Of a DNA stretch of 33,380 bases, positions 17,843-33,380 are shown one piece after another (within the stretch, counting starts at the first letter, position 1; the number at the start of each line of letters is the position of its first letter). The stretch covers positions 1 to 33,380 of the forward strand of contig CAZFYV010000001.1 in assembly GCA_964523195.1 (NCBI GenBank). The letters are read 5' to 3'. The DNA comes from an uncultured Pseudobdellovibrionaceae bacterium. GTDB lineage: Bacteria > Bdellovibrionota > Bdellovibrionia > Bdellovibrionales > JAGQZY01. Both the position numbers and the translations under genes were made by a program. The notes under the pieces are model-generated. The model was not told where the DNA came from. It ran no database searches and worked only from the letters and a program-made list of their open reading frames with translations.

Positions 17843-17850
17843 CATTAGGT

Positions 17851-18855: not shown

Positions 18856-18958
18856 AAGTCTAGCAGAGTCTAATATTTCAAACTACTTACATGACTTTGG
18901 TTTCTCAGATTGAATCATCTAAAGGATGCGAAATTACCCCTAATAGCTTCCCTTAGAA

Positions 18959-18987: not shown

Positions 18988-19186
18988 ATCTGTGCCTGTT
19001 AGCTTTAAACCTAATTGGTTAAAAGTTTTGTGGTTGAACACTAATCTAACAGTTGAATATTGGGTGGACACTTTTTGGCAATCCGACCTAGGTATTAATC
19101 ATACAATTTCTTATTTTTCATTTCTGATAGGGCGACTAACCTTAATAGTGTGTTTCGAATTGATACACGAATGGGGACATTAGGAG

Positions 19187-20050: not shown

Positions 20051-20158
20051 CTTCAAATAACAGCGGTTTAGGCCTCTTACTCTGTGCAACGAACGTAGAC
20101 TTTTTCCTCACAATTCAGTGTCATGGGATATTATTCTTTTTCTGTTGAGGGAACTGTT

Positions 20159-21943
20159 ATGAGAGATTTCTTTAAAATGATGGTCGCATCTGCTGCTGGG
20201 TACTTTATCGCTATTGCGGCTGCGAGTTTTATGTTCGTTATGTCTGTTTCTTTTCTTGCTGCCTTAGGTGGTGGAGGAGGAGCTAGCCCTGTCTCCCTTA
20301 AAGAAAATTCAATATTGCGTATTAACTTAATGGGGCAAATCGTTGAAAGAGATAGTCAGTTTGACTTTAACTTTCCTGGCCCTCTCGGTGGAGATTTCGA
20401 ACCAACAATTGGTCTCTACGATGTTAAAGCGGCGATTGAGCACGCAGCCAATGATGGCAATATTAAAGGGATTTATTTGCGATTTTACGGACCAAGTGGA
20501 AGTTATGCATCTTTTGAATCTCTGCGCAGAAGTTTAGAGAAGTTTAAGGAGTCCGGAAAGTTTATCTATGCTTACTCCGAGTTTTATGGTGAGGCTGATT
20601 CCTATCTAGCAGCGGTCGCTGACAAGATTGTTATGTATCCCCAGGGTTTTCTAGAGTCCAACGGGTTTGCTTCAATTCCAGTTTTTTTCAAAAAGACTTT
20701 AGCAAAACTTGAGATTAAGCCAACGATTTTTAGAGTGGGTGAATTTAAGTCTGCAGTGGAACCTTTTGTTCGAGAATCCATGAGCGAAGAAAATCGCTTG
20801 CAAACAAAAGAGTTGTTAGATGATCTTTGGAATCACTATGCGCTTAAAGTTTCTGAAAAGCGAGATTTTATGGTTGCAGACGTGAATAACTGGGCGAACA
20901 AGCTTTCTGTTATCAGGGCTAAAGATGCTCTTGATAAGAAGCTTGTTACCGAGCTCTCTACTGAGACAACAGTTCTTCAAGAGCTCATGCAAAAAACTGA
21001 ACTAAAAGATGAAAAGAAACCTAGATTTATTGGTTATAAAGGGTATTTGAATGCCTCTGGAGCCTTAAAGAAGTTTGCAATGGATAAGATTGCTGTCTTG
21101 ATGGTGGAAGGCGATATTGTTTACGGTGACTCTGATGAAGATTCGACAGGGTCAGAAACTTTTGTGAAACAGGTTAGAGAAATTGCCCAGGATGACTCTG
21201 TTAAAGGTTTAATTGTAAGAGTAAATAGCCCAGGTGGAGATGCTTTAGCTTCCGATGTTATGCATGAGGAGTTAATGCACTTAAAAAAGAAGATTCCTGT
21301 TTATACCTCTTTTAGCGATGTGGCAGCGTCTGGTGGATATTACTTAGCTGCAGGTTCAACCAAGATCTTGGCTGAAAATACGACTATTACGGGCTCGATT
21401 GGTGTGTTCGGTCTCATGTTCAACACCAAAGACTTTTTTGACTCTAAGTTGGGAATGCAATTTGATCGAGTTGTGACTAATCCTTACGCTGACAATATGA
21501 ATTCGAATCGAGATTTAACCGATCTTGAAAAGAGAAAGGTTCAAGACGTTATTGAATCTATTTACGATCGCTTTCTTTCTCTAGTTAAAGATGGAAGAAA
21601 GTTTGAGTCTCTAGATGCGGTTAAGAAAATAGCTGGTGGAAGAGTTTGGTCAGGTCGAAAGGCCTTGGAACTTGGGTTGGTGGATGAGCTTGGAGGCTTG
21701 GACACAGCTGTTGAAATGATGACCTCAGAGCTAAATATTAAAGATTTCAAAGTTCAGTTTTATCCTGGAGAGAAGGGGCCATTAGAAGCCTTGCTAAAGA
21801 AGTTTGGCGCTTCACTTTCTGATATCCTTGAAAGTCGCTTTGGGCTTTATTCTCACACTGGTGTAGATGTTAAAACGATTGAAAAAGTTAAAAGTTTTGA
21901 AGGAATTCAAGCCAGAATGCCGTTTGAATTTAAATTTCAATAG
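20159..21943 (+). CDS. sppA: Signal peptide peptidase A, 67K (tandem S49) type
   Basis: Two S49 repeats. Motifs SPGGDALASD and AASGGYYLAAG. N-terminal TM helix. ATG 20159 has GAGGGA plus a 6-nt spacer; the track start at 20123 adds 12 aa. Confidence 0.9.
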   Translation: MRDFFKMMVASAAGYFIAIAAASFMFVMSVSFLAALGGGGGASPVSLKENSILRINLMGQIVERDSQFDFNFPGPLGGDFEPTIGLYDVKAAIEHAANDGNIKGIYLRFYGPSGSYASFESLRRSLEKFKESGKFIYAYSEFYGEADSYLAAVADKIVMYPQGFLESNGFASIPVFFKKTLAKLEIKPTIFRVGEFKSAVEPFVRESMSEENRLQTKELLDDLWNHYALKVSEKRDFMVADVNNWANKLSVIRAKDALDKKLVTELSTETTVLQELMQKTELKDEKKPRFIGYKGYLNASGALKKFAMDKIAVLMVEGDIVYGDSDEDSTGSETFVKQVREIAQDDSVKGLIVRVNSPGGDALASDVMHEELMHLKKKIPVYTSFSDVAASGGYYLAAGSTKILAENTTITGSIGVFGLMFNTKDFFDSKLGMQFDRVVTNPYADNMNSNRDLTDLEKRKVQDVIESIYDRFLSLVKDGRKFESLDAVKKIAGGRVWSGRKALELGLVDELGGLDTAVEMMTSELNIKDFKVQFYPGEKGPLEALLKKFGASLSDILESRFGLYSHTGVDVKTIEKVKSFEGIQARMPFEFKFQ

Positions 21944-21955
21944 GTTCCAGGAGGC

Positions 21956-22573
21956 GTGTTGAAGGTAAAACATGTCGTTTTTGATTTTGGAGGAGTCCTA
22001 TACAATATTGATGTAGGACTTTCTGTTAAAGCGTTCGATGATTTATTCGTTAAGTATCCATACTGCGAGCGCTCAGAGTTAATGAACCATGAAACTGTAG
22101 ATAAGTTTGAAAGAGGTCATTACTCTCCTGATGAGTTTCGAGCTCTCATTAGTGCAAGGCTCAAGAATATGGTTAAAGATCATGAGATTGACGATGCTTG
22201 GAGAAAACTTTTACTGGGAGTTTTTCCAGATCGCGAACAGAAACTGAGGGACTTGAAAACGAGAGTGCCAATTTCATTATTGTCGAATACAAGCTCAATA
22301 CACTACGAGTATTTTTCTCCACAGTGTTCGGATCTACTGGGTTTGTTTGAAAAGCAATTTCTTTCCTTTGAGATGGGGCAGAGAAAGCCTGACCACGAGA
22401 TCTACCACACTATGATTGAAGAATTGGGATTGAAACCGGGAGAGGTCGTTTTTGTCGATGATCTTGCGGAAAATATCAAGGCCGCTAATGAGACGGGAAT
22501 AAAAGGTATTCACCTTAGCCACTCGGATAAATTTGATGATGTCTTGGCGGAGATAGAAGGGTTGATTAATTAA
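21956..22573 (+). CDS. HAD-superfamily hydrolase/phosphatase (subfamily IA-like)
   Basis: Motif I VVFDFGGVL, motif II LLSNTS, motif III Lys in QRKPDHEIY, motif IV FVDDLAEN. Strong SD CCAGGAGG. Its stop lies 1 nt before the ATG of the first radical SAM gene. Confidence 0.85.
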   Translation: MLKVKHVVFDFGGVLYNIDVGLSVKAFDDLFVKYPYCERSELMNHETVDKFERGHYSPDEFRALISARLKNMVKDHEIDDAWRKLLLGVFPDREQKLRDLKTRVPISLLSNTSSIHYEYFSPQCSDLLGLFEKQFLSFEMGQRKPDHEIYHTMIEELGLKPGEVVFVDDLAENIKAANETGIKGIHLSHSDKFDDVLAEIEGLIN

Positions 22574-22574: not shown

Positions 22575-23747
22575 ATGGAAAAGGTCAAAGAAACAAGCGA
22601 GACATTTTGGTCAACTTATGATTTCCGCGATATACCCTATGAAGATATCGAGCTCGTCGGGCAGAGGTCTCTACTTTATCGCGATCTTTTTTGCGTGAGT
22701 TGGCTTCTAGGGCGTTTTTGCAATTACAAGTGTTCATATTGCTGGCCTTATGCTCGATCCGATACTAAAGATCATAGAACAACTGAACTCGTAATAAACA
22801 CCTTGGACGAGATAAAACGTCAGGCCCGAGAACGAGGTTTCAATTCTTTCCATTTCTCTTTTTCTGGTGGCGAACCGACGCTTCATCCTGGGTATCTAAA
22901 AATTATCCAGCACTACGCTGATGATTTAGAGAATACGAACTATCAGTCCCTTCACATGACAAGCAATATGAGTCCCGGTGTAGGCTGGCTCAAGAAATAT
23001 GCTTCGGTAACGAAAGATTTTCATCGTGTCAGTGTAACGGCAAGTTATCATAAGGAGTTTGCAAAAAAGGAAAGCTTTTCGGATAAGCTCGTTTTTCTTC
23101 AAGAAAATGATATTCAAGTGACGATTAATATGGTTATGGTTCCGGATCGTTTTGATTTATTGTGGGATGATGCTTTGTATTTTCACGAAAAAGGTATCAA
23201 TGTGACTCTCAAGCCACAAAGTGACCCCACAGCTTCTAACGTTGTTAGTGGGTACACCCAGGAGATGCTCGACCGTTTACAAAACGGCATGCCTCAAATG
23301 GATTACACTAAGAAGCGCCTAAAGGACCACGAAAAGCAGTCTCAAAGACCTAAGTATCATGGTCCGAAGAACAAAGTTCTCTTTGATCAAGAAAACTCTG
23401 ATGTGCCGGCAACTATGCAAGTTGAGTTTAAAGATAAAGCCAAAAAGACTTGGTATATGGATCAGGCAGAAAGATTTAATGCTTTTAATTTTAACAAATT
23501 CAAAGGCTGGGAATGTTCCTCTGGATATCGAAGTATAATCATTCGAGAGCCTGATGGGAATATCAAGCGCAGCTATAGTTGCCATGATGAACCTCTCGGA
23601 AATATTGAAACAGGTTTCCAGCTGTTCGAGAAGCCAGAGCCATGTAAGACTCCAAGTTGTGTCAGCAGTGCTGACAGTAAAATTCCAAAGAGAAAGCCCG
23701 GAGCGCAATGGCCTCTCTGGCCTGGTGATGAAACCTTTAAATCTTAG
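22575..23747 (+). CDS. Radical SAM enzyme A (singleton) with a C-terminal Cys-rich twitch/SPASM-like module
   Basis: CX3CX2C = CNYKCSYC (nt 22719-22742). SAM-binding FSGGEPT. The C-terminal segment WECSSGYRSIIIREPDGNIKRSYSCHDEPLGN...PCKTPSC supplies four extra Cys. Confidence 0.85.
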   Translation: MEKVKETSETFWSTYDFRDIPYEDIELVGQRSLLYRDLFCVSWLLGRFCNYKCSYCWPYARSDTKDHRTTELVINTLDEIKRQARERGFNSFHFSFSGGEPTLHPGYLKIIQHYADDLENTNYQSLHMTSNMSPGVGWLKKYASVTKDFHRVSVTASYHKEFAKKESFSDKLVFLQENDIQVTINMVMVPDRFDLLWDDALYFHEKGINVTLKPQSDPTASNVVSGYTQEMLDRLQNGMPQMDYTKKRLKDHEKQSQRPKYHGPKNKVLFDQENSDVPATMQVEFKDKAKKTWYMDQAERFNAFNFNKFKGWECSSGYRSIIIREPDGNIKRSYSCHDEPLGNIETGFQLFEKPEPCKTPSCVSSADSKIPKRKPGAQWPLWPGDETFKS

Positions 23748-23755
23748 AGAGTCCC

Positions 23756-24832
23756 ATGTATAGCTACGATTCCATAAAACATGTGCATCTAGAACTTACC
23801 TCTAAGTGTAATGCCCGTTGTCCAATGTGTTTGCGGACATTGTCTGGTGGGAAATTGAATCCGCAGCTACCTCTGACCGAATTGAATCTTGATGATATCA
23901 AAAAAATCTTTACACCGGAGTTCGTAAAGCAGTTGGATCGTATCTACATGTGTGGAAACTATGGAGATCCAATCGCAGCGAAAGAGACTCTAGAGATTTT
24001 TCAATATTTTAGATCTTTGTCCTCTACTATTCGATTGGAGATGTTCACGAATGGTTCTCTGAAAGGCAAAGAGTGGTGGGTTGAATTAGCAAAAGTGGTA
24101 AGTTTGGTTCATTTTTCAATCGACGGACTTGAAGATACGAATCATCTTTATCGAAAAGGGACTCAGTTTCCAAAAATAATGGAAAATGCTGAAGCATATC
24201 TTGGAGCTGGAGGTCGAGCCTTCTGGGACTTTATTGTTTTTAAACACAATGAGCACCAGATTGATGAGGTTAAGTCTTTGGCTGAAAAAATGGGCTTTGA
24301 AAAAATAAGTGTCAAAAAGACAGGCCGATTCTTTAGTAATGAAAGATCTAAAGTAAAAGAACAGCAAGAAGTCTTAGATTTAAATGGTGAGGTCGAGTAT
24401 TACCTGGAGATGCCAGATAATGTTGAATACCACAACACTAGCTTGCAGAAAGAACAGGCCCTTGTTGAACGCTATGGAAGTTTAGAGAATTACCTCAATA
24501 AAACGCCCGTGCTTTGTAAGGTAGCAAAAGAAAAGAGTCTATATATATCGGCTGAAGGCCTAGCGTTTCCATGCTGTTGGACCGGTAATCAGCTTTATCC
24601 TTGGTATTTTAAAGAGCGTGGTTCGCCTATTTGGAAAATGATTGATGAGCTTGGTGGAAAGTCGGCTCTATCTGCAATTGAGCGGCCTTTGCAGGAAATT
24701 GTCGAAGGACCGTTTTTTAATCAATCTTTACCAGACTCTTGGGGTAAATCTTCGATTAAAGAAGGTAAGTTAAAAGTCTGTGCTAAGACATGTGGAAGTG
24801 AGTTCGATCCTTTTGGTGACCAATTCAAATAG
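23756..24832 (+). CDS. Radical SAM enzyme B (paralog of C) with a C-terminal twitch/SPASM-like module
   Basis: LELTSKCNARCPMC. The GGE motif is replaced by MCGNYGDP. Also TNGS and SIDG. The C-terminal CKVAKEKSLYISAEGLAFPCCW ... CAKTC is a typical auxiliary-cluster pattern. Confidence 0.85.
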   Translation: MYSYDSIKHVHLELTSKCNARCPMCLRTLSGGKLNPQLPLTELNLDDIKKIFTPEFVKQLDRIYMCGNYGDPIAAKETLEIFQYFRSLSSTIRLEMFTNGSLKGKEWWVELAKVVSLVHFSIDGLEDTNHLYRKGTQFPKIMENAEAYLGAGGRAFWDFIVFKHNEHQIDEVKSLAEKMGFEKISVKKTGRFFSNERSKVKEQQEVLDLNGEVEYYLEMPDNVEYHNTSLQKEQALVERYGSLENYLNKTPVLCKVAKEKSLYISAEGLAFPCCWTGNQLYPWYFKERGSPIWKMIDELGGKSALSAIERPLQEIVEGPFFNQSLPDSWGKSSIKEGKLKVCAKTCGSEFDPFGDQFK

Positions 24833-24844
24833 GTATTTAGTTCT

Positions 24845-25951
24845 ATGGAAAATAGATTTAATTTTCAGTTATACAAATGGCATTTAGAAATTAGCACCAA
24901 ATGCGCTCTTAAGTGTCCTCGATGCCCTAGAACAGAAAAACCTGGGCAATACACCGTAGGGGAAATGTCGCTTGATTTTATTCGCGAGACCTTTACGCCA
25001 GACTTTCTCAAAACATATGTAAAAAGAATCATTTTATGCGGCGGTCAAGGTGATCCTATATATCATGGAAAATTTCATGATGTGATTCGGTACTTTAAAA
25101 CGGCACACCCGGGACTATCGCTGCAGATTACCACTAATGGTTCCTACAGGAGTAAAGAATGGTGGGAAGAGGTTGCCGGCATATTAGATGAAAAAGATAT
25201 TGTTGTTTTTTCCGTTGATGGGTGGGACCAGGAGTCGAACGAAAAGTATCGAGAGGGCTGTGATTTTTCTTCGATAGAAGATGCCATTAAGGTTATGTCG
25301 AAATCTTTAGCTCACATACGGTGGACAGCTATTGCATTTAAATTTAATCAAGACAGGCTCGAGGAGATGTCTGAAAAGGCTGAAGCTCTGGGCTGCGACT
25401 CCTTTACTGTTACATTGAGTTCTCTTTTTGGGAGCCAAAATTCATTTTATCTCGATGAAAATGGCGAAGATTTGCTAGAGCCAACTAAAGAAAACTTGCG
25501 AACACAATGGGGAAGGCACCAGAGAGTGTTTTTGGGAGCTGAATCCAAAATTGATGTGCAAGCCCCTTTTGTTGAATTGATGGAAGAGCGAGTTGGTGAG
25601 CTCAATTCTGAATTCAAAGATAAGTATATAAAACCACTCTGTTTGACCGGAATGAAGGCTATGTATGTTGATGTGGATGGCATTTTCTATCCTTGCTCTT
25701 GGCTCTCTCATCCTTTTGGAGTGCGAAAAAGCAAAGTGTCAGGGCGAGAAATAAAATATAATGATTCACTCTTTGTTAAGTATAAATCCGAGTTCGATCT
25801 CAACTTGAAATCTATTGAGCAAGTTATTAATTCAAGCCATCTTGGGGATTTAGTTCAGGGTTGGAAATCTGCAGATCAAAGTTTCATTGAGTGTGAGCAA
25901 AAGTGCCTTGCGCCCTGGGAGAAGTTTTTGGAGCAAAGAACTTCGGTTTAG
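24845..25951 (+). CDS. Radical SAM enzyme C (paralog of B) with a C-terminal twitch/SPASM-like module
   Basis: LEISTKCALKCPRC, LCGGQGDP, TTNGS, SVDG. The C-terminal segment is CLTGMKAMYVDVDGIFYPCSW ... CEQKC. Collinear with B (FTPEFVKQ / FTPDFLKT). Confidence 0.85.
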   Translation: MENRFNFQLYKWHLEISTKCALKCPRCPRTEKPGQYTVGEMSLDFIRETFTPDFLKTYVKRIILCGGQGDPIYHGKFHDVIRYFKTAHPGLSLQITTNGSYRSKEWWEEVAGILDEKDIVVFSVDGWDQESNEKYREGCDFSSIEDAIKVMSKSLAHIRWTAIAFKFNQDRLEEMSEKAEALGCDSFTVTLSSLFGSQNSFYLDENGEDLLEPTKENLRTQWGRHQRVFLGAESKIDVQAPFVELMEERVGELNSEFKDKYIKPLCLTGMKAMYVDVDGIFYPCSWLSHPFGVRKSKVSGREIKYNDSLFVKYKSEFDLNLKSIEQVINSSHLGDLVQGWKSADQSFIECEQKCLAPWEKFLEQRTSV

Positions 25952-27339
25952 GTATAAAGGTCTTCGACTGGTGGTTTATTTTTAAGATCCAGTCTAGCGG
26001 CTTCTTCTTCAATAATTTTAAAAAGATCTGGGTCAGCTATTTCTAGAGAATGTCCCCTGATTTCATCAAGGCGTTTGTGTGCAGCCCAAAATGATTTGAA
26101 TAGGTTATCCCTGCGGTTTTTCTCTAAAAAGTTCAAGGTGGAATCTTTGATTTTTAAAAACTTCTCGAGTTGGTGATTATCAAGCTTAGATTCAGCCAGG
26201 CGACTTTTTAATTCGTTTTCGTAATTTATAAATGATTTAACCGCGTGTTCTGCCCATTTCTTGGTCATGGCAGCGATACTTAAGTAGCTCGGTTGGTGAA
26301 GAAGATGAGTGCTTAAAACTAGAGTTCTTCCAGATTTTCTGCCAATCTTTTTAAAATCGGATTGAAGTACCCATTCAAAAAGGCGTGGAATATCAGCGAG
26401 ATTGTAATTCATAACTGTGACCGCAAACCAAACCACATATCGGTCGTCAGCTGCCTCATCTAGTTTTTTAATATTTTTTTCTAAGTTGGCCCACTTTGAC
26501 GGGTATCGAATGTAGTTATTGAGGTCACCAATGGCGTCAATTGAAATTCCAATGGAAACCTTTTTAAAGTTCTTCCACAATCTAATTGCTTTGTCAGGAA
26601 GAACCGTGAGATTTGTATTGTACTCCAGCTCAATATTTTTTGCTTTATCCATTTCTACAAGATGTTCTAAAAATTCATAATGCTTATTTATAAGTAAAGG
26701 TTCACCACCCACAAGATATAGCAACTCGAGATCGTCAATATTTACCTTTAAGTCTTGCCATGACTGGGAGTTATTCATCCAGTTATAGGAATCATCAGCC
26801 GAACGATAGGATCCGTCCTTAAGTTTCAATTCAACTTTACCATGAGTGTCGCTAAAGGTCTCTCGTTCATAGAGCTTAACGTGATCATCATACCAAGCGG
26901 AACTCTCTGTTGGGTTGCAGCTTCGGCATTTCAAATTGCATTGGTTTCCCAGTCTTAGCTCATAAAACTTAACAGGAACGTCATCGGTAGAAATAGTACC
27001 ATCAGGTGATGTTCTTTGAGTGAGATCTTGAGGAGGAAGGTCTTCCCAGTGTCTCTGCTCAAGAATTCTGCGGCTCTCTATTCCAGAGTCCTCTTCTTGT
27101 TTGCATCTTGCACAGACAGGGTGCCATTTCCCTTCGAGCATGGCCTTTCTGACTTCTTTTAACGTTTGAGAGTTTCGAGATTCAGTTAAAGAGTCTTGGC
27201 CGATTCTATACTCGGTTCCATCATCTTTAGTCAATGAGCCTTTGTTGGGGCCAGAATTTGCTGCACAACAAACTCTCAGATGTCCATTGGTTCTTGTGCC
27301 TTGAAAAATCCATGGTAAATAACAAAAGGTCTTGGTCAT
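25948..27339 (-). CDS. Radical SAM enzyme D with an N-terminal twitch-like Cys module (paralog of E and H)
   Basis: N-terminus FCYLPWIFQGTRTNGHLRVCC ... CARC. Core CNLKCRSC, VGGEPLL, and IRYPSKW conserved in all three paralogs. The start overlaps the stop of E (ATGA). Confidence 0.85.
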   Translation of the reverse strand: MTKTFCYLPWIFQGTRTNGHLRVCCAANSGPNKGSLTKDDGTEYRIGQDSLTESRNSQTLKEVRKAMLEGKWHPVCARCKQEEDSGIESRRILEQRHWEDLPPQDLTQRTSPDGTISTDDVPVKFYELRLGNQCNLKCRSCNPTESSAWYDDHVKLYERETFSDTHGKVELKLKDGSYRSADDSYNWMNNSQSWQDLKVNIDDLELLYLVGGEPLLINKHYEFLEHLVEMDKAKNIELEYNTNLTVLPDKAIRLWKNFKKVSIGISIDAIGDLNNYIRYPSKWANLEKNIKKLDEAADDRYVVWFAVTVMNYNLADIPRLFEWVLQSDFKKIGRKSGRTLVLSTHLLHQPSYLSIAAMTKKWAEHAVKSFINYENELKSRLAESKLDNHQLEKFLKIKDSTLNFLEKNRRDNLFKSFWAAHKRLDEIRGHSLEIADPDLFKIIEEEAARLDLKNKPPVEDLYT

Positions 27340-28754
27340 AGAGCGCTTTGCTTTTGTTCGTCTAAACCCTGTTCTTCATAGTCAAGTAATTCAGCCATTT
27401 CAGGAAATACTTCCCTGAAATTTGTTCCACGAATTGAGTCCATTTTGTTAATATACTCCTTGAACTCAGGCATGCGTTGAGACCAATCCTCGGCTTCCAT
27501 AAAAGAGACCATGCCTTTTAATCGAGGGATACCATATTTGTTTTCTAAAAACTCTTGGTCGTTTCGGTAGTTTTCTTTTAACCAGTCGTAAAACTCATCA
27601 TACTTTTTACGAACCTTTTCTTTAAAGCTCTTAGGGAAAACTTTAACGTTAAGGTGAGCCGGGTGGTAGACAAAATGAAAATTGATTAGACCAGCTCCTA
27701 AAGGGTAAGGGTTGATTTTTTTGAAGTTCTTTTTAAGTTTCCATTTAATGAAATCTGGCAAATAGTACATGTTTAGCATTTGAACTGCGCAGGCCACGGT
27801 AACTTCAACATTGTCTGTTGTGTTGTCTAGTAGCTCAAATTGCTTTTCAATATGAGGCCATTTTGAAGGGTATCGAATGTAATCGTTCATCTCGCCAACC
27901 GAGTCGATACTAAAATGAAATCGTACTCTTTGAAAGTGACTCCACAACTCAAACAAGCGATCGGGGAGTTCAATTCCATTACTGTTGTAGCGCAATTCGA
28001 TATGGGAAGCTTCGCCTCGTTTGATACACTCTTCAAGTAAAGTATAATGTTCCTCTATAATAGTGCTTTCGCCGCCAGCAAAATACAGTTGCTTCATATT
28101 TGGGATTTGTTCGTAAAGTTGTTCCCAAAAGACCTTATTTTCCTTGTGCCAATCATAGGTCGCACCATCAACTTGGCCCTTGTTGTTCCAAATCATAATC
28201 TGTTTAAGGCTGGGGTTTTTGATTTGCGGATAAAGTTTTTTCCAATCACCAACCCATAGTGAGCTGTCATGGGGGGAGCACATAATACACTTTAAGTTGC
28301 ACTTAGTTCCAAGTCTCAAGTCCACGTAGGTAATTTGAGGCGGAACCGAGCCATCTTCTTCGGTTTGTGCCAATAGATCATCGATATTAACTCGTTGTGA
28401 CCAGTACTCTGTCTCCCAAACTCGTTTGGAGCTATGGCCGGCAGCTTCTTCTTTAAAGCATTTGGTGCAAGAAGCGGGGATTTCGCCGGCCAGCATCTTT
28501 GTACGAACATCTTTCATATAAGAATTGTTCCACGCAGACAAAAGGTCGGTATGATTTAAGTTTGCCGGTTTGCCATCGTCATTTTTAAGAATTCCGACTT
28601 CTCCGCCGTATTTTTTGTCATTGGTAGCGCCAGCGCTAGAAGCATTAGCCGTGCAGCAAACCCTCATATGACCATTTGGCCTTGTAGAAAGATGGATCCA
28701 TGGAAGGATGCAAAAGGTTTTGCTAACTTTCTTTTTAATATCCTCAATTTTCAT
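27336..28754 (-). CDS. Radical SAM enzyme E with an N-terminal twitch-like Cys module (paralog of D and H)
   Basis: FCILPWIHLSTRPNGHMRVCC ... CTKC. Core CNLKCIMC, AGGESTI, IRYPSKW. SD GAGGAA lies 8 nt upstream of ATG 28754. Confidence 0.85.
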   Translation of the reverse strand: MKIEDIKKKVSKTFCILPWIHLSTRPNGHMRVCCTANASSAGATNDKKYGGEVGILKNDDGKPANLNHTDLLSAWNNSYMKDVRTKMLAGEIPASCTKCFKEEAAGHSSKRVWETEYWSQRVNIDDLLAQTEEDGSVPPQITYVDLRLGTKCNLKCIMCSPHDSSLWVGDWKKLYPQIKNPSLKQIMIWNNKGQVDGATYDWHKENKVFWEQLYEQIPNMKQLYFAGGESTIIEEHYTLLEECIKRGEASHIELRYNSNGIELPDRLFELWSHFQRVRFHFSIDSVGEMNDYIRYPSKWPHIEKQFELLDNTTDNVEVTVACAVQMLNMYYLPDFIKWKLKKNFKKINPYPLGAGLINFHFVYHPAHLNVKVFPKSFKEKVRKKYDEFYDWLKENYRNDQEFLENKYGIPRLKGMVSFMEAEDWSQRMPEFKEYINKMDSIRGTNFREVFPEMAELLDYEEQGLDEQKQSAL

Positions 28755-28818
28755 TGTCGAAGCTTCCTCTTATTTCAAATAACATTGTAATCTGTTTTTT
28801 GATTTAAATAAATCTCGT

Positions 28819-29511
28819 TTAAGTCTGAGACAGTTCTACCTCTTTGAACTTCTCTTCTAGCCAATCAAAGTCGTTGATTTTATTCAATTGCTCAGGTTGT
28901 TCCTTATTTACGTCTACAAATTCTCTACCCATATTAGCTCCAAGTATGCACCATTTTCCGAAAGGGCGATCAGCACCTAATTCACACCAGGTGTCTAGAC
29001 GTTCCTGGCTTTCCTTTTGTTGGGAGTTCTTAATTAGGCCACTAGACAGCTTTACACATTCTCGAAATGCAGACTTCCAGGTGTTGTAAGGATCAGTGTT
29101 AAACTGGGTTTCTGAAGCAAGTGTATGGATAATTCTATACTTTGGAGCAAGAGATGTGGACATATCCAAATTCATATTTGCTTTTGCTTGGACGTGGACC
29201 TTTGGGAAAAGTTTTATAGCCCCGTATCCGTAGACCAAGTCATTAACGGCATTTTTGCAACGCCAAACGTGAATAGCTTCTTGATCTTCTTCTTTTATTT
29301 CATAGTCAAAATGGAAGGAGTCGTAAACGTAGTTATCCCCATCAACAACATAAAAGTGAGATCCCTTAGAGTTCTCAGCGCACATTTTGTGTGCGTTAAG
29401 AATGCCCTTAATATTATCAATACGTTGGGCTTTGGGTTGAAGCTTTTTAAGACGAGCAAAATTCTCATCACCGTTGGGCTCTTTATAGGTCAGCATAAAA
29501 ATATCGTACAC
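28819..29511 (-). CDS. Uncharacterised DxD protein F (paralog of G). Possible GT-A-like nucleotide-dependent transferase.
   Basis: 230 aa. IFMLTYKEPN strand, RIDNIKGILNAHKMCAENS, VVDGDN, YGYGAIKLFPK and WCELGAD are all mirrored in G. The GTG start shares one nucleotide with the stop of G (TAGTG). Confidence 0.7.
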   Translation of the reverse strand: MYDIFMLTYKEPNGDENFARLKKLQPKAQRIDNIKGILNAHKMCAENSKGSHFYVVDGDNYVYDSFHFDYEIKEEDQEAIHVWRCKNAVNDLVYGYGAIKLFPKVHVQAKANMNLDMSTSLAPKYRIIHTLASETQFNTDPYNTWKSAFRECVKLSSGLIKNSQQKESQERLDTWCELGADRPFGKWCILGANMGREFVDVNKEQPEQLNKINDFDWLEEKFKEVELSQT

Positions 29512-30491
29512 TAGAACATCCGTCCTTCTCGAAGGGGGTTCACGTATGTCGACTTAAAAAAGCGGGAAGAGTCACCATTAAGATATGCGACCTGGAAATT
29601 AAGGCGGTCATTTAATATATCACCGATTCGGTGGATCTCGTTTTCAAGCATACTATTATTCCAAGAATAATTGGAAAAATCGCAGGAGTGGGAAGTTCCC
29701 GAAAATTGAGCTTTAATTTCGTTGGTCCAAAAATCGCGAAACCAGTCGTAATCTCTGACCAGAGAATAGTCCCATTCTGTTAGGAGAGTCATATATGTGC
29801 CCAAGCGAGCACCATAAATAGCCCAATTGCCATTGAATACATCTGCGCCAACGGAACACCATATTCTCAGGCGTTGCAAATTGGATCTGGCCAATAATTC
29901 AAAAATATCAGTGGGCTGCTCGCCGCTAAACTCTGGTATCTTTCCGCGGTCTAAGACCATTTTAACACCTTCTCGAAACCCAGCTCTGAATGCTTGGTAG
30001 GGAGTTGCTGTGACGGATGTTGTTGAAAGAATCTGGGGCATTTGTAAGTAGTTGAGCTGGAAGCAAAAGTCTACAGAGCTCTCCTCATCTTCGGCATTTT
30101 CGTGGGTCTTCATTTCCATGACCGTTTTTCGAGTCCAGCACTTTACACCACCGTTTCCATAACAAAGCCCGTTGAGTTCGTTTTTACTTGTCCAGCTAAT
30201 GACTTCGTTCTCGGCAAAAGAGTCAAAGTCCATTTCGGTAGAGTAATAAGTTTCTGTAAGGAGATTATCTCCATCAATTGTTATGAATCTTTCAGTTTTT
30301 GATTGTTCTGCGCATGCTTTATGGGCGGCATCGAAGCCTTTGACGCCGTCAATTCGCTTCACCCAAGGGGAGTTTTTTTTGATTTGCCTCCAAAAATCTT
30401 CCTTCAGGGGTTCATCGTAGGTAATAAAAAAGTTATCGATATCCCAAATTGCAGCCAAAGCGTTCTCCTGACCCATTATTAAAGTAAACAA
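29511..30491 (-). CDS. Uncharacterised DxD protein G (paralog of F, with a C-terminal extension of about 90 aa)
   Basis: 326 aa. FFITYDEPL, RIDGVKGFDAAHKACAEQS, TIDGDN, YGNGGVKCWTR, WCSVGAD. Start ambiguous (TTG 30491 or ATG 30476); neither has a clear SD. Confidence 0.7.
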   Translation of the reverse strand: MFTLIMGQENALAAIWDIDNFFITYDEPLKEDFWRQIKKNSPWVKRIDGVKGFDAAHKACAEQSKTERFITIDGDNLLTETYYSTEMDFDSFAENEVISWTSKNELNGLCYGNGGVKCWTRKTVMEMKTHENAEDEESSVDFCFQLNYLQMPQILSTTSVTATPYQAFRAGFREGVKMVLDRGKIPEFSGEQPTDIFELLARSNLQRLRIWCSVGADVFNGNWAIYGARLGTYMTLLTEWDYSLVRDYDWFRDFWTNEIKAQFSGTSHSCDFSNYSWNNSMLENEIHRIGDILNDRLNFQVAYLNGDSSRFFKSTYVNPLREGRMF

Positions 30492-30609
30492 AGCTTAGGG
30501 GGTCAATTGAGCCATGCTTAGAACTTACAGCGTCTCACTGTTAAACACAGCGTTAAGAAATGACTGCTTTAGCTCTTTATTTTTGAAAAGCCTGCTATAG
30601 ACTGAAGAT

Positions 30610-32010
30610 ATGAGTGAAAAACCCAAATCTTGGTGCCCTTTACCTTGGATGCACCAGGCACTTAGGAATAACGGAGATTTTAGAGTTTGTTGCCAGGCGA
30701 ATTCTAGTCTGAGTCGCGGGCTTTTAAATAGGTCTGACGGGCGGGTTATGAGTGCTAAGGACTCGGATCTCAATGAGGCGCGAAATTCCGTAGATTTAAA
30801 ACTGATTCGCAAGCAAATGCTCGAAGGTGTTTGGCCAGAGAGCTGTATGCGATGTGAGAGAGAAGAAGAGTCTGGAATTCGCTCTAGAAGAACATATGAG
30901 ACTGAGTTATGGGGACAGCATGTTAGCTATGAAGATGCTAGAGAGCTGACCGCATCGGATGGTTCGATTGACATTCAAAAGTTTCCGACTCGTTATTGGG
31001 ATCTTAGGTTTGGTAATCACTGTAACTTAAAGTGCCGAATGTGTGGCCCAAGTGACTCTCACTCCTGGTATTCCGATTTTCATGCGATGGGTATTAACGA
31101 ATTTAAAGATACCCACGGAACCATTGAGCTAGAGGCGAACGAACGAGGAATCGTCAAAGCCAAAGATGATCCCTACACCTGGTATGAAAGTAATGACTTC
31201 TGGGATCAGCTTTATGGACAGATCGAGTCTATCGAGCACGTTTATTTAGTGGGTGGTGAACCTCTTTTAATTCATCAACATTATGATTTTCTGAATGAGC
31301 TTGTTGAAAGAGGCCGAGCGCCCTTTGTAACATTGGAATACAACACAAACCTTTCAATCGTTCCTGAAAAGGCTTTAAAGCTTTGGGAACATTTTAAAAA
31401 AGTTAAGCTTGGTGTGAGTTTGGATGGTGTTGGTCCTATCAACGATTATATTCGTCACCCGAGTAAGTGGTCAGTGATGGAGAGAAATCTCCTGAAGATT
31501 GATAAAGCGCCTGGGAATATTGATGTTTGGTTGGCTCCGACTATACAAATTTTGAACGTTATGCATCTTCCAGAAATGATAAAATGGAAGATGGAAAGGC
31601 AGTTCAAAAGGATTAACAGTAATAGCTCAAAACCTTTTGTTACGACCCATTTGTTGCATAGGCCAGAATTTTACAACATTAGAACTCTTCCGCCATCCTA
31701 CAAACTACTTGTTGAAAAAGAGTATACCGAGTTTTACTCATGGCTTCAGGATTGGATGTCAGACAATAGTTTTAGTGAAAAAAAACGAACTCAGTTTATG
31801 GACGTTGCAAAGAGTTTACTCGGTGGATTTTTGAAGTATATGAACCAGGAAGATTGGTCGGGGAAACACCTTTCGCAGTTTTTGACTGTTACTAATCAAA
31901 TCGACCAAATTAGAAGTGAATCCTTAGAAACAGTGAGTCCACTTCTTTACGAGCATGTAATAGAGGAATTAAAAAAGCAGGGAAGCAATACAGTACGACA
32001 ACTAGGTTAG
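30610..32010 (+). CDS. Radical SAM enzyme H with an N-terminal twitch-like Cys module (paralog of D and E)
   Basis: WCPLPWMHQALRNNGDFRVCC ... CMRC. Core CNLKCRMC, VGGEPLL, IRHPSKW. Roughly half the residues are identical to D by eye over the N-terminal 100 aa. Confidence 0.85.
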   Translation: MSEKPKSWCPLPWMHQALRNNGDFRVCCQANSSLSRGLLNRSDGRVMSAKDSDLNEARNSVDLKLIRKQMLEGVWPESCMRCEREEESGIRSRRTYETELWGQHVSYEDARELTASDGSIDIQKFPTRYWDLRFGNHCNLKCRMCGPSDSHSWYSDFHAMGINEFKDTHGTIELEANERGIVKAKDDPYTWYESNDFWDQLYGQIESIEHVYLVGGEPLLIHQHYDFLNELVERGRAPFVTLEYNTNLSIVPEKALKLWEHFKKVKLGVSLDGVGPINDYIRHPSKWSVMERNLLKIDKAPGNIDVWLAPTIQILNVMHLPEMIKWKMERQFKRINSNSSKPFVTTHLLHRPEFYNIRTLPPSYKLLVEKEYTEFYSWLQDWMSDNSFSEKKRTQFMDVAKSLLGGFLKYMNQEDWSGKHLSQFLTVTNQIDQIRSESLETVSPLLYEHVIEELKKQGSNTVRQLG

Positions 32011-32012: not shown

Positions 32013-32948
32013 ATGATTCAGGCAGACGTATTTCAATCAAAAGTTCTTGGCTCAATAGAGTCAGTTATCTTCGGGAAAAAAGAAAAGATACAATTAGCAC
32101 TAACTTGCTGGTTAGCTGGCGGCCATCTTCTCATTGAAGATTTACCCGGGACAGGTAAAACCATATTAGCGAGAAGTATTGCGACGACCGTCGAAGCCCC
32201 TTTTAGAAGAATACAGTTTACTCCAGACCTTTTGCCCTCGGATATTATTGGGGCTTCAGTATTTAATCAAAAAAACCAAGAGTTTGAGTTTATAAAAGGC
32301 CCTCTTTTCACAACGGTTTTACTCGCCGATGAATTGAACAGGGCAACACCTCGAACTCAGTCAGCCCTTCTTGAAGCAATGGCCGAAATCCAGATCACCT
32401 CAGATGGTAAGACCTATGATCTACCTGAGAGTTTTTTTGTGATCGCAACTCAAAACCCAATTGAACAGGTTGGGACTTTTCCATTGCCTGAAGCACAGAT
32501 GGATCGCTTTCTCATGAGAATGGGGATGGGTTATCCAGAGCGTGGCTCAGAGATTGAAGCCGTTAAACAAATAAAGGGAACTCACCCGGTTAATAAATTG
32601 AGTTCTGTCACTAATTTGGATGCATTGAAGATGGCCAAAGAGCAAGTCAATGCCATTGAAGTGCACGACAAGATATATGACTACTCGATGAGAATTGTCG
32701 AAGAAACTCGGCGATCGGATGATCTTTTGTGCGGATCTAGTACGCGGGGCTTTATCGGTTTAATTAACTCCTCAAAGGCTTATGCATGGCTGCAAGGAGA
32801 CAAATACGTTAAACCTTCTCATATTTATCATTTGGCAGGGCCTGTGTTGGCTCATCGATTGGTACTTAAGCCTGAGGTTCGCCTTACAGGAATAAAAGCA
32901 AACGACGTTGTTAAAAAGTGTCTACAGAATGTTCCTAGCCCTGGCTAA
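32013..32948 (+). CDS. MoxR-family AAA+ ATPase
   Basis: Walker A EDLPGTGKT, Walker B LLADELNRA, sensor VIATQNP. 311 aa, which is typical MoxR size. The ATG lies 2 nt after the stop of radical SAM H. Confidence 0.9.
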   Translation: MIQADVFQSKVLGSIESVIFGKKEKIQLALTCWLAGGHLLIEDLPGTGKTILARSIATTVEAPFRRIQFTPDLLPSDIIGASVFNQKNQEFEFIKGPLFTTVLLADELNRATPRTQSALLEAMAEIQITSDGKTYDLPESFFVIATQNPIEQVGTFPLPEAQMDRFLMRMGMGYPERGSEIEAVKQIKGTHPVNKLSSVTNLDALKMAKEQVNAIEVHDKIYDYSMRIVEETRRSDDLLCGSSTRGFIGLINSSKAYAWLQGDKYVKPSHIYHLAGPVLAHRLVLKPEVRLTGIKANDVVKKCLQNVPSPG

Positions 32949-32951
32949 ACC

Positions 32952-33380
32952 ATGAAGAGTATTCGTCGACTAGGAACCAGAGATTTAATCAAGCAGTCGC
33001 GACGAATGATGAAGGAGATTCGAGGTTTTCCTATTTCGGCCCGCCTCATGAGTTTTTTCCATCCCTTTTATTTGGCGGTTCTTTTAGTTTTAGTTTGTTT
33101 GGGTTTAAGCCTCATGGATCGTTTTTTTACGGCTTTGGCAGCAACTCTAATATTTTCATTGATTTTTATATACATGAGGACATTAGGATTAGCTCAATCG
33201 ATATCGATTGAAAGAATTGTCCCTTACAGTGTGAAATTTGGAGAAGAGTTTAGGGTATTGTACGAAATTACTAATTCTAACTGGTCGAGCCTTCCTCATA
33301 TTATCTTTACAGATAGTTTTTCTGGTCAAAAAGATCGAAAACAGTTCTATTCCATTGAATCTGGCGTTGCTCCTAACCAA
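32952..33380 (+). CDS. Probable DUF58-family protein, N-terminal 143 codons (runs off the window end)
   Basis: Absent from the ORF track because it is open-ended. My translation from ATG 32952 gives MKSIRRLGTRDLIK...FYLAVLLVLVCLGLSL..TALAATLIFSLIFIY..ERIVPYSVKFGEEFRVLYEITN with no stop to 33380. Two TM helices followed by a beta-rich domain, in the canonical position after moxR. Assigned by context and architecture. Confidence 0.55.
   Translation, partial: MKSIRRLGTRDLIKQSRRMMKEIRGFPISARLMSFFHPFYLAVLLVLVCLGLSLMDRFFTALAATLIFSLIFIYMRTLGLAQSISIERIVPYSVKFGEEFRVLYEITNSNWSSLPHIIFTDSFSGQKDRKQFYSIESGVAPNQ

What the first reader, a model, noticed from the sequence alone, without database searches (positions are those of the whole stretch)
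22575..32010. Eight-gene island of six auxiliary-cluster radical SAM enzymes plus two DxD proteins, with no visible substrate, transport or classical pathway genes
Seen directly: six ORFs within 9.4 kb each carry a CX3CX2C triad (A CNYKCSYC, B CNARCPMC, C CALKCPRC, D CNLKCRSC, E CNLKCIMC, H CNLKCRMC). Each also has a second Cys constellation. The genes form three paralog sets (B/C; D/E/H; F/G) plus singleton A. Packing is operon-like. The HAD stop and A start are 1 nt apart, A-B 8 nt, B-C 12 nt. E/D overlap as ATGA, G/F overlap as TAGTG, and F-E are 64 nt apart. I see no B12-binding or methyltransferase domain, ABC transporter, peptidase or obvious precursor ORF. I also see no NDP-sugar synthesis, flippase or polymerase gene. 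Established knowledge: SPASM/twitch radical SAM enzymes either modify peptides and proteins (AlbA, PqqE, anSME) or oxidise and rearrange small molecules (BtrN on an aminocyclitol, MoaA on GTP). Inference: this is a multi-step radical tailoring pathway with an unknown substrate. The substrate could be a glycan, cyclitol or nucleotide (supported by the HAD and DxD proteins), or a peptide or protein encoded elsewhere. I cannot match the combination to any characterised cluster from memory.
Basis: partly seen in the sequence, partly recalled or inferred. Interest (0 to 1): 0.85.

Follow-up and report, generated by a model that had tools for sequence, protein, structure and literature searches.

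The report
Radical-SAM plus glycosyltransferase cassette shared with phages
The eight genes are real and form an uncharacterised cassette of six iron-sulfur radical enzymes and two sugar-transferase-like proteins; it is not unique to this genome, because it recurs across predatory Bdellovibrionota and, next to tail-fibre genes, in many marine and jumbo phages.

Summary
Six intact radical SAM (rSAM) genes (A, B, C, D, E, H) and two paralogous DGD-motif genes (F, G) lie at 22575-32010. All CX3CX2C triads and second Cys sets are conserved in relatives.

New findings:
- D, E and H pass NCBIfam NF033640 (N-terminal twitch rSAM).
- G, and by paralogy F, has a GT-A glycosyltransferase fold but matches no Pfam, NCBIfam or PHROG model. 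The family has at least 1,500 clusters at 50% identity.
- F-E, G-F-c8 and GT-B-G fusion proteins exist in nature.
- The closest relatives carry a 5-gene version (G, F, E, B, A) at the same SppA/MoxR site. The HAD gene is not part of the module.
- Near-complete counterparts (G, F, B, B', E, H, A) lie just downstream of tail-fibre genes in IMG/VR phage contigs. A reduced G/rSAM/F version lies in the tail module of Ralstonia phage RsoM2USA.
- In other Bdellovibrionota the A-E-B triad sits among GT2, sugar-kinase and NDP-sugar genes.
- A and E are 61-85% identical across phages and bacterial classes, whereas G and F are 26-68%.

Best reading (about 0.5): a soluble, cytoplasmic glycosylation cassette. 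A, B and E make or remodel a conserved sugar-derived moiety, and G and F transfer it. The substrate is unknown and I found no published characterisation.

The parts
22575..23747 (+). A: radical SAM enzyme, 390 aa. Triad C49/C53/C56 plus a C-terminal 4-Cys site (C314, C336, C357, C362). Core member and very conserved orthogroup.
   Evidence: Pfam Radical_SAM 50.4 bits. No NCBIfam cut-off is reached. 4792 homologues, the top 120 at 64-81% identity. Cys conservation. 61-81% identical in L004, L071 and phage locus L166.
23756..24832 (+). B: radical SAM enzyme, 358 aa. Triad C18/C22/C25 plus a C-terminal twitch-like Cys set (C254, C273, C274, C342, C346). Core member.
   Evidence: Pfam 38.8 bits. 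phrog_21308 E=2e-30. Orthologues are 47-72% identical. Cys conservation.
24845..25951 (+). C: radical SAM paralogue of B, 368 aa. Accessory member.
   Evidence: 29% identical to B, E=4e-38. Pfam 38.3 bits. Absent from the 5-gene version in L003/L004. Best counterpart is 40% identical, in L169.
25948..27339 (-). D: N-terminal-twitch radical SAM enzyme, 463 aa. Accessory paralogue of E.
   Evidence: NF033640 351.6 bits against a cut-off of 170. 34% identical to E. Absent from L003/L004.
27336..28754 (-). E: N-terminal-twitch radical SAM enzyme, 472 aa. Core member and the most conserved gene of the cassette. Occurs naturally fused to an F-like domain.
   Evidence: NF033640 444.7 bits. Top 120 homologues are 67-85% identical. 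F-E fusions P0177, P0178 and P0213. AlphaFold2 model pLDDT 85.6. Only generic rSAM structural neighbours.
28819..29511 (-). F: short GT-A-like DGD protein, 230 aa. Paralogue of G.
   Evidence: 31% identical to G, E=3e-31. No Pfam, NCBIfam or PHROG hit. The F-like domain is fused to E in P0177, P0178 and P0213. The F-like segment of P0361 (residues 308-421) gives a weak Glycos_transf_2 hit, E=0.001, below cut-off.
29511..30491 (-). G: GT-A-fold DGD protein with a C-terminal helical domain, 326 aa. Start codon uncertain (TTG at 30491; a database gene call gives 315 aa).
   Evidence: Model pLDDT 91.0, pTM 0.90. The best Foldseek PDB and BFVD hits are GT-A glycosyltransferases, with a few structurally related nucleotidyltransferases further down. 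Invariant D73-G74-D75. More than 7786 homologues, 1508 clusters at 50% identity. P0001 is 315 aa at 100% identity.
30610..32010 (+). H: N-terminal-twitch radical SAM enzyme, 466 aa. Accessory but a recurrent orthogroup.
   Evidence: NF033640 389.4 bits. 37% identical to E. H-type counterparts in L068, L171, L175 and phage locus L166, at 400-468 bits.
30492..30609 (.). 118-nt divergent intergenic region between G (minus strand) and H (plus strand). Probable promoter region for the G-F-E-D operon and for H.
   Evidence: Coordinates. The consensus promoter scan was not enriched over shuffles, so this assignment rests on gene arrangement only.
21956..22573 (+). HAD-IA phosphatase. Adjacent and possibly co-transcribed, but not a conserved part of the module.
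   Evidence: Pfam Hydrolase 56 bits. Best NCBIfam hit is glucose-1-phosphatase at 86.9 bits against a cut-off of 295. Absent between SppA and A in the syntenic loci L003/L004, and not found beside the module in any other locus.

Best explanation
The locus encodes a soluble, cytoplasmic glycosylation or glycan-tailoring cassette.

G and F are divergent GT-A-fold, DxD-type transferases that probably depend on a nucleotide-activated donor. A, B and E form a tightly conserved triad of radical SAM enzymes, each with an auxiliary Fe-S site. They make or remodel the sugar- or nucleotide-derived moiety that G and F transfer. C, D and H are accessory paralogues that add further radical tailoring steps in this lineage.

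The same toolkit is used by marine myophages and jumbo phages, where it lies directly downstream of tail-fibre genes. Other Bdellovibrionota also use it, embedded among GT2, sugar-kinase and NDP-sugar genes. The final acceptor is therefore most likely a surface or virion glycoconjugate.

Shown: gene integrity, family membership, GT-A fold, domain fusions, co-localisation and the conservation gradient.

Inferred: that the donor moiety is sugar-derived; the order 'radical steps first, then transfer'; and the chemistry. By analogy with BtrN, DesII and BlsE (from established knowledge), that chemistry would be dehydrogenation, epimerisation, dehydration or decarboxylation. There is no cobalamin or HemN-type domain for methylation.
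For: 1. G model: pLDDT 91, pTM 0.90. Its best PDB neighbours are GT-A transferases: RmlT (E=9e-5), GalNAc-T7, WrtF, SunS, PBCV-1 A64R and TarP/TarS. Viral GTs dominate the BFVD hits. The DGD motif is invariant.

2. Domain fusions tie the parts together:
- F-E in P0177, P0178 and P0213.
- G-F-c8 in P0361 and L156.
- A GT-B domain (Glyco_tran_28_C, 38 bits, above cut-off) fused to G in P0438.

3. The module G, F, E, B, A recurs:
- At the same SppA/MoxR site in L003/L004.
- In L022, L044, L060, L068-L072, L078, L169, L171 and L175.
- In phage loci L166, L156, L146 and L135.
- 53 of 80 IMG/VR loci have at least one related rSAM gene within 10 kb of G.

4. The neighbours are glycan genes. Bacteriovoracaceae loci carry three GT2 genes, a UGM-like flavoprotein and a polytopic membrane protein. 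L169/L170 carry GT2, NTP_transferase and an APH-type kinase. L171 carries GT2.

5. The conservation gradient is typical of 'conserved donor synthesis, variable transferase'. E is 61-85% identical, A 61-81%, B 47-72% (32% in L022) and G/F 26-68%.

6. G-F and the A-B-E triad occur on the same chromosome contig even when 45-120 kb apart (L002 with L174; L042 with L175).

7. All eight proteins lack TM segments (maximum KD19 of 1.16 or less).

8. Phage context: the tail-fibre block lies immediately upstream (PHROG tail-fibre hits). In RsoM2USA, ORF348-350 lie about 4.5 kb from the MS-confirmed structural protein ORF356 and about 7 kb from the tail sheath gene ORF359. Radical SAM cassettes and GTs were noted in the pelagimyophage host-recognition cluster (PMC7029224).
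Against: - No enzyme activity is shown for any component.
- G and F match no curated GT family, and structural similarity is modest (TM about 0.3 over the whole model).
- The window has no NDP-sugar synthesis gene, initiating phosphoglycosyltransferase, flippase, polymerase or exporter.
- The structural neighbours of E include peptide maturases (SkfB is the top hit; also anSME and SuiB) as well as sugar- and nucleotide-acting enzymes.
- E can occur alone, next to housekeeping genes (L168), and the triad sits beside rpsU-dnaG-rpoD in L174. A non-glycan core function therefore cannot be excluded.
- The c8 family, which accompanies the module in most loci, is missing from the window.
Confidence: 0.5

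Rival explanations
1. Protein or peptide maturation (RiPP-like). The twitch-type rSAM enzymes introduce cross-links, epimerisations or oxidations into a protein encoded elsewhere. Candidates are phage fibre proteins or predator adhesins. G and F then glycosylate that protein.
For: The best structural neighbour of E, and its only PDB sequence hit, is the RiPP maturase SkfB. The best PDB sequence hit for A is anSME. SunS (an S-glycosyltransferase for peptides) and polypeptide GalNAc-transferases are among G's neighbours. In phages the cassette directly follows tail-fibre genes and a Ser/Thr-rich 320-aa protein. No lipid-carrier or export genes are present, and all the proteins are soluble.
Against: The cassette has no precursor ORF, no PqqD-like RRE, no peptidase and no exporter. 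All RiPP-maturase NCBIfam hits are far below cut-off. A and E are 61-66% identical between phage locus L166 and this bacterium, and 61-67% across Bdellovibrionota classes. Yet the phage fibre, c2 and c4 proteins have no counterpart in the bacterial loci. The bacterial neighbours are GT2 and NDP-sugar genes.
Confidence: 0.2
2. Nucleotide or nucleic-acid modification. The rSAM enzymes act on NTPs or on bases (viperin-, QueE- or MoaA-like), and the GT-A-like proteins glycosylate a modified base, as TET-associated glycosyltransferases do.
For: Partial pVip/viperin hits to the rSAM core (PADLOC 1.6e-11 for A, 8e-12 for B. NCBIfam). Viperin and MoaA are among E's structural neighbours. QueC-like PP-loop ATPases occur inside some versions (L071 c41, L087 and the L166 SGGADS protein). 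A TAGT protein of phage phiRSL1 is among the BFVD hits (E=1.1e-3).
Against: All these hits are sub-threshold and cover only the N-terminal SAM-binding core. No TGT/DpdA, FolE, QueD or base-hydroxymethylating enzyme is seen. The phage copies sit in the tail and host-recognition module, not in the DNA-metabolism module. The bacterial neighbours are GT2 and sugar-activation genes.
Confidence: 0.12
3. Biosynthesis of a diffusible small-molecule natural product (aminoglycoside-, cyclitol- or nucleoside-like), with G and F as tailoring glycosyltransferases.
For: BlsE (blasticidin S) and DesII are among E's structural neighbours. By established knowledge, GT plus twitch-rSAM pairs occur in aminoglycoside pathways (BtrM with BtrN). 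The cluster is compact and has no carrier-lipid genes.
Against: There are no scaffold-forming, resistance, regulator or export genes. The cassette is widespread in lytic phage structural modules. The A-B-E triad is conserved at 60-85% identity across a whole phylum, next to housekeeping genes, which is atypical for secondary metabolism.
Confidence: 0.08

Closest known systems
NCBIfam NF033640, 'twitch domain-containing radical SAM protein' (N_Twi_rSAM); a computationally defined subfamily
   Same: D, E and H score 352-445 bits against a cut-off of 170 over the full model length. They share the N-terminal C...CC...CxxC module followed by the CX3CX2C core.
   Different: The family has no characterised member that I could find. 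Membership therefore names the proteins but gives no function.
Radical SAM cassettes and glycosyltransferases in the host-recognition cluster of pelagimyophages (Zaragoza-Solas et al. 2020, PMC7029224)
   Same: The gene families have the same arrangement. IMG/VR and TARA contigs carry tail fibres, then GT-like genes, then G-F, then arrays of B-, E-, H- and A-type rSAM genes on one strand.
   Different: The paper only mentions the cassettes in passing and assigns no function. Here the module sits in a bacterial chromosome without tail-fibre genes, c2/c3/c4, c8, the 75-aa protein or the PP-loop ATPase.
Carbohydrate-active twitch or auxiliary-cluster rSAM enzymes: BtrN, DesII, BlsE (from established knowledge; DesII and BlsE also appear as structural neighbours)
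   Same: They have a radical SAM core, in most cases with an auxiliary cluster. They act on (amino)sugars, cyclitols or sugar nucleotides and are encoded next to glycosyltransferases. BlsE and DesII are among E's best Foldseek hits (E=1.7e-4 and 8.5e-4).
   Different: Sequence similarity is negligible (there is no phmmer hit to the PDB for E). The twitch module of D/E/H is N-terminal rather than C-terminal. No substrate is known.
Virus-encoded GT-A glycosyltransferases that glycosylate virion proteins (PBCV-1 A64R; mycobacteriophage GTs)
   Same: GT-A fold with a DxD motif, a soluble protein, and a gene in a viral structural region. 2p6w (A64R) and mycobacteriophage GTs are among G's structural hits.
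   Different: Identity is about 10%. G has an extra conserved helical C-terminal domain of about 130 aa and its own invariant motifs (NGLxYGNGG, QAFRxGFREGVK). It is associated with rSAM enzymes, which those systems lack.
GT plus rSAM pairs in hopanoid side-chain (HpnH/HpnI/HpnJ) and mycofactocin (MftC/MftF) pathways (analogy from memory only)
   Same: They combine a glycosyltransferase with one or more radical SAM enzymes acting on the same small moiety.
   Different: No family-level hit reaches cut-off (HpnH 16.9 bits against 225; mycofactocin rSAM 30.5 bits or less against 265). No hopanoid genes or MftA/MftB genes are present.

Membership tests
Radical SAM superfamily (PF04055) | CX3CX2C motif that ligates the SAM-binding [4Fe-4S] cluster, and a profile match above the gathering score | tested here: met
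   All six proteins score 31.2-50.4 bits against 29.5. The triads are conserved in 12/12, 43/43 and 87/87 relatives.
NF033640 N-terminal twitch radical SAM subfamily | Full-length match above the curated cut-off (170 bits) | tested here: met
   D 351.6, E 444.7 and H 389.4 bits, all over the full model. A (37.6), B (54.5) and C (29.6) fail.
SPASM/twitch auxiliary-cluster rSAM enzymes | An additional conserved Cys constellation able to bind at least one auxiliary Fe-S cluster | tested here: inconclusive
   Conserved 4-5 Cys sets are present in all three families. However, the Pfam SPASM match is only 21.0 bits against 21.5 for E and absent for the others. Cluster binding itself cannot be tested here.
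GT-A glycosyltransferases | Rossmann-like GT-A fold with a DxD metal and nucleotide-sugar binding motif | tested here: met
   Model of G: pLDDT 91. Its top PDB and BFVD neighbours are GT-A enzymes at probability 0.95-1.0. D73-G74-D75 is invariant. F is assigned by paralogy.
GT-A glycosyltransferases | Membership of a curated GT sequence family, and demonstrated sugar transfer | tested here: not met
   G and F give no Pfam, NCBIfam or PHROG hit. There are only sub-threshold Glycos_transf_2 hits in fused homologues. Activity cannot be tested with these tools.
RiPP biosynthetic gene cluster | A precursor peptide ORF, an RRE (PqqD-like) domain, and a leader peptidase or exporter next to the maturase | tested here: not met
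   Intergenic gaps range from -4 to 118 nt, leaving no room for an ORF. No PqqD, peptidase or ABC domain occurs in the eight proteins. All RiPP-maturase equivalogs are far below cut-off.
O-antigen or capsule locus | NDP-sugar synthesis genes, an initiating phosphoglycosyltransferase, and Wzx/Wzy or an ABC exporter | tested here: not met
   None is present in the cassette or in window positions 6846-20050 and 32013-33380. Related loci elsewhere do carry GT2, NTP_transferase and kinase genes.
Prokaryotic viperin (pVip) defence | Full-length match to viperin models above cut-off (NF038283, 180 bits) | tested here: not met
   The best hit is 41.9 bits and covers only residues 41-118 of A. PADLOC pVip hits cover only the N-terminal core.
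The recurrent G/F + A/B/E cassette (uncharacterised; defined here) | Co-localised G/F-family GT-A-like gene(s) with E-type, B-type and A-type rSAM orthologues | tested here: met
   The window carries all five families. The same set occurs in L003/L004, L022, L166, L171 and L175. The c8 partner seen in most other loci is missing.

The most novel reading that the evidence does not exclude
A, B and E carry out three consecutive radical steps that turn a common nucleotide-activated metabolite into a previously undescribed sugar-like donor. The unannotated G/F transferase family attaches this donor to surface structures used for host or prey recognition. On this reading, marine myophages, jumbo phages and predatory Bdellovibrionota share one biosynthetic toolkit for an 'attack-surface' glycan, and lineages expand it (up to ten rSAM genes in a row) to diversify that glycan.
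Probability: 0.25. Interest if true: 0.85.

Novelty: new variant of a known kind. Interest (0 to 1): 0.62.

Why it matters
If the glycan reading is right, the cassette would define three new things:
- a new radical-SAM route to an unusual sugar or glycan modification;
- a function for a very large unannotated transferase family (at least 1,500 clusters at 50% identity, abundant in ocean viromes);
- a function for the orphan subfamily NF033640.

It would also explain the 'radical SAM cassettes' seen in the host-recognition regions of abundant marine phages. It would further reveal a biochemical link between phage and bacterial predation surfaces.

Practical entry points exist. One is a cultured phage that carries G, an N-twitch rSAM and F (RsoM2USA ORF348-350). 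Another is the natural F-E fusion proteins, which are suited to biochemistry.

Tried and rejected
- Curated family scans (Pfam, NCBIfam, PHROGs, PADLOC) gave no equivalog-level assignment and nothing for F or G.
- Sequence searches of the PDB with G, E and A profiles returned only SkfB (6e-5) and anSME (9e-6), matched over the SAM-binding core.
- Foldseek with the E model returned only generic rSAM folds, a mix of peptide, sugar and nucleotide enzymes. It does not discriminate between substrates.
- Eight literature searches found no characterisation. The only relevant text is a passing mention in PMC7029224. The RsoM2USA paper lists these ORFs as hypothetical.
- tRNA, Rfam and promoter/terminator scans found no RNA element, and promoter-like sites were not enriched over shuffles.
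- Base composition shows no GC anomaly, so there is no compositional sign of recent transfer.
- Searches of the window for the c8 partner, the 75-aa phage protein, the PP-loop ATPase and the c3 GT-like protein found all of them absent.
- HAD as pathway evidence is rejected, because it is not conserved with the module.
- The SppA-A adjacency (5 nt in L003/L004) was considered as a link to a peptidase and rejected. It holds only in this lineage, and SppA is a housekeeping signal-peptide peptidase.
- 'Decaying duplicates' is rejected.
- Source names for G-family clusters are all 'hypothetical protein'.

Full report
**1.

The ORF list gives eight genes at exactly the stated coordinates:

| Gene | Coordinates | Strand | Length (aa) |
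|---|---|---|---|
| A | 22575-23747 | + | 390 |
| B | 23756-24832 | + | 358 |
| C | 24845-25951 | + | 368 |
| D | 25948-27339 | - | 463 |
| E | 27336-28754 | - | 472 |
| F | 28819-29511 | - | 230 |
| G | 29511-30491 | - | 326 |
| H | 30610-32010 | + | 466 |

- The six quoted CX3CX2C strings are in the translations.
- All six proteins pass the Pfam Radical_SAM gathering score (31.2-50.4 bits against 29.5).
- Spacing is operon-like and as described: HAD-A 1 nt, A-B 8, B-C 12, C/D -4, D/E -4, E-F 64, F/G -1, G-H 118, H-MoxR 2.
- This gives three transcription units: (sppA-HAD-)A-B-C on the plus strand, G-F-E-D on the minus strand, and H(-moxR) on the plus strand. G and H are divergent.
- B/C are paralogues (29% identity, E=4e-38). 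So are F/G (31%, E=3e-31).
- D and H are 34% and 37% identical to E.
- Base composition is uniform across the window. No tRNA or Rfam element is present.

**2. What the individual proteins are**

- D, E and H are full-length members of NCBIfam NF033640, 'twitch domain-containing radical SAM protein'. They score 351.6, 444.7 and 389.4 bits against a cut-off of 170.
- In D, E and H the extra Cys module (C15, C33, C34, C96, C99 in E) lies N-terminal to the radical SAM core.
- A, B and C reach no curated cut-off. Their extra Cys sets are C-terminal.
- F and G hit nothing in Pfam, NCBIfam or PHROGs.
- An AlphaFold2 model of G, built on 26 homologues, is confident (pLDDT 91.0, pTM 0.90).
- The best PDB neighbours of this model are GT-A glycosyltransferases: RmlT at 9e-5, then GalNAc-T7, WrtF, PcManGT, SunS, PBCV-1 A64R and TarP/TarS, with a few related nucleotidyltransferases further down. 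Viral glycosyltransferases dominate the BFVD hits.
- D73-G74-D75 is invariant in the G family. So 'DxD proteins' becomes 'divergent GT-A-fold transferases'.
- An AlphaFold2 model of E (pLDDT 85.6) has only generic rSAM neighbours: SkfB, BlsE, MoaA, viperin, DesII and anSME. It does not identify the substrate class.
- Profile searches of PDB sequences give only SkfB (for E) and anSME (for A), matched over the SAM-binding core.
- None of the eight proteins has a hydrophobic segment (maximum KD19 of 1.16 or less). All are predicted to be soluble.

**3. The cassette is widespread, not an idiosyncratic island**

G-family proteins are very numerous:
- 1508 clusters at 50% identity;
- every source name recovered is 'hypothetical protein'.

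A scan of one genome per GTDB species found about 80 loci. They come mainly from Bdellovibrionota, from Rhodobacterales (G alone), and from contigs that carry phage tail-fibre genes.

I mapped the window's proteins onto all fetched loci:

(a) The closest relatives are the Bdellovibrionia MAG loci L003 and L004.
- They are syntenic with the window on both sides.
- They carry MoxR | G F E B A | SppA, a 5-gene version at the same site.
- HAD, C, D and H are absent.

(b) Bacteriovoracaceae loci (L044, L068-L072), together with L022, L060, L078, L169, L171 and L175, carry the A-E-B triad with G and/or F.
- L171 has ten rSAM genes in a row, including an F-E fusion.

(c) In phage contigs the genes lie on one strand in a conserved order.
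- The order is: tail-fibre genes (PHROG tail-fibre hits), c2, c4, two c3 genes, a gene of about 190 aa, G, F, c8, a 75-aa gene, B, B', E, (a PP-loop ATPase), H, A', A.
- Locus L166 has G, F, B (47%), E (61%), H (44%) and A (66% identity), a near-complete counterpart of the octet.
- 53 of 80 viral loci have at least one related rSAM gene within 10 kb of G, and 18 have four or more.

(d) The only cultured phage hit is Ralstonia jumbo phage RsoM2USA.
- Its ORF350, ORF349 and ORF348 correspond to G, an N-twitch-like rSAM and F.
- They lie about 4.5 kb from the MS-confirmed structural protein ORF356 and about 7 kb from the tail sheath gene ORF359.

[quoted passage not shown] It gives no functional analysis.

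**4. Evidence that the parts work together**

Natural fusions link the components:
- an F-like domain fused to E (P0177, P0178, P0213);
- G-F-c8 in one polypeptide (P0361, and the 1058-aa ORF of L156);
- a GT-B domain (Glyco_tran_28_C, above cut-off) fused to G (P0438 and others).

G-F and the A-B-E triad also lie on the same chromosome contig when separated:
- L002 and L174, about 45 kb apart on an 838-kb contig;
- L042 and L175, about 120 kb apart on a 937-kb contig.

The neighbours in bacterial loci are glycan genes:
- three GT2 genes, a UGM-like flavoprotein, a polytopic membrane protein and a PP-loop ATPase in Bacteriovoracaceae;
- GT2, NTP_transferase and an APH-type kinase in L169/L170;
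- GT2 in L171.

There is a clear conservation gradient:

| Protein(s) | Identity to the window's copy |
|---|---|
| E | 61-85% |
| A | 61-81% |
| B | 47-72% (32% in L022) |
| G and F | 26-68% |

E and A stay this conserved between this bacterium, another class of Bdellovibrionota and phages. This is the pattern expected when conserved enzymes make a fixed moiety and variable transferases attach it to different acceptors.

**5. Best explanation and rivals**

I think the cassette most likely (about 0.5) performs cytoplasmic glycosylation or glycan tailoring:
- A, B and E make or remodel a conserved sugar- or nucleotide-derived moiety by radical chemistry.
- G and F transfer it.
- C, D and H add lineage-specific steps.

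The chemistry is inferred only from established knowledge of carbohydrate-active rSAM enzymes such as BtrN, DesII and BlsE. Candidates are dehydrogenation, epimerisation, dehydration or decarboxylation. Methylation is unlikely, because there is no cobalamin or HemN-type domain.

Weaknesses of this reading:
- no activity data exist;
- the window has no sugar-activation or export genes;
- E can stand alone among housekeeping genes (L168);
- the c8 partner is missing from the window.

Rivals:
- Protein or fibre maturation with glycosylation (0.2). It is supported by the SkfB and anSME neighbours and by the phage tail-fibre context. It is weakened by the lack of any precursor, RRE or peptidase, and by enzyme conservation across hosts that share no candidate protein substrate.
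- Nucleotide or nucleic-acid modification (0.12). It rests on sub-threshold viperin hits, QueC-like neighbours and a TAGT structural hit.
- A diffusible natural product (0.08).

**6. Comparison with known systems and novelty**

- Membership is met for the radical SAM superfamily, for NF033640 (D, E, H) and for the GT-A fold (G).
- Membership is not met for any RiPP class, for O-antigen or capsule loci, for viperin, or for any curated GT family (see the membership table).
- The cassette works like a GT plus tailoring-rSAM glycan pathway. It belongs to no characterised one.
- I class it as a new variant of a known kind. The protein superfamilies are familiar, and the phage cassettes have been noticed before. 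The module as a unit, its fusions, its sharing between phages and predators, and its function are undescribed in the literature I could search.
- Interest is 0.62. It remains substantial because the families are very large, unannotated and experimentally tractable.

Noticed in passing
window 28819-30491 (F, G); proteins P0001-P0120 and P0361-P0508: The G/F family has no Pfam, NCBIfam or PHROG model. Even so, it has more than 7786 clusters at 90% identity, 1508 at 50% identity and at least 570 IMG/VR loci. It is a large, unannotated GT-A-like family with its own invariant motifs (NGLxYGNGG, QAFRxGFREGVK, DGD).
   Followed up: yes
P0177, P0178, P0213 (F-E); P0361 and L156:9986-13162 (G-F-c8); P0438, P0434, P0465 (GT-B-G): Natural multi-domain fusions link the GT-A-like domains to the E-type radical SAM enzyme, to the c8 family and to a GT-B glycosyltransferase domain.
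   Followed up: yes
L071:10924-11730, L174:12239-13528, L172:4369-5583, L166:11573-12424 (c8 family): A 270-430-aa family with no Pfam hit (only a weak Spermine_synth match, E=0.0014) abuts the module in most bacterial and phage loci. It is absent from this 33-kb window and from L003/L004.
   Followed up: partly
L166:12421-12648, L156:13149-13373, L146:12780-13010, L135:13711-13935, L060:5316-5531: A highly conserved protein of about 75 aa (..ATNNNI.QFN.QAHHNSQNWY..GPGK..) lies between c8 and the B-type rSAM gene in phage versions. L166:16336-17193 encodes a PP-loop ATPase (SGGADS motif, C-terminal CxxC) between E and H. Neither has a counterpart in the window.
   Followed up: partly
L171 (Logan SRR33677572_33286), 439-14016: Ten consecutive radical SAM genes on one contig, including an F-E fusion, followed by c8 and a GT2 gene. 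This is the largest expansion of the cassette seen here.
   Followed up: partly
L017, L037, L055, L075, L079 and other GTDB MAG contigs: Contigs binned into MAGs of Fischerella, Bifidobacterium, Legionellales, Pacearchaeota and Dojkabacteria carry the phage block of tail-fibre, c2, c4 and c3 genes upstream of G. They are probably mis-binned phage contigs.
   Followed up: partly
window 20123-22573, and L003/L004: sppA directly abuts the A gene in the closest relatives (5-nt gap). In the window a HAD-IA phosphatase is inserted between them (gaps of 12 nt and 1 nt). The A-B(-C) genes may therefore be co-transcribed with sppA in this lineage.
   Followed up: partly
window 12535-14940 (+), 801 aa; window 17851-18855 (-), 334 aa: Two sizeable ORFs upstream of the cassette have no Pfam domain at E<=0.001.
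   Followed up: no
L168 (3.04-Mb contig), 10001-11401: An E orthologue (76% identical) stands alone between an oligopeptide ABC transporter and rseP/tsaB, with no G, F, A or B within 10 kb. This shows that E is not always clustered with its partners.
   Followed up: no
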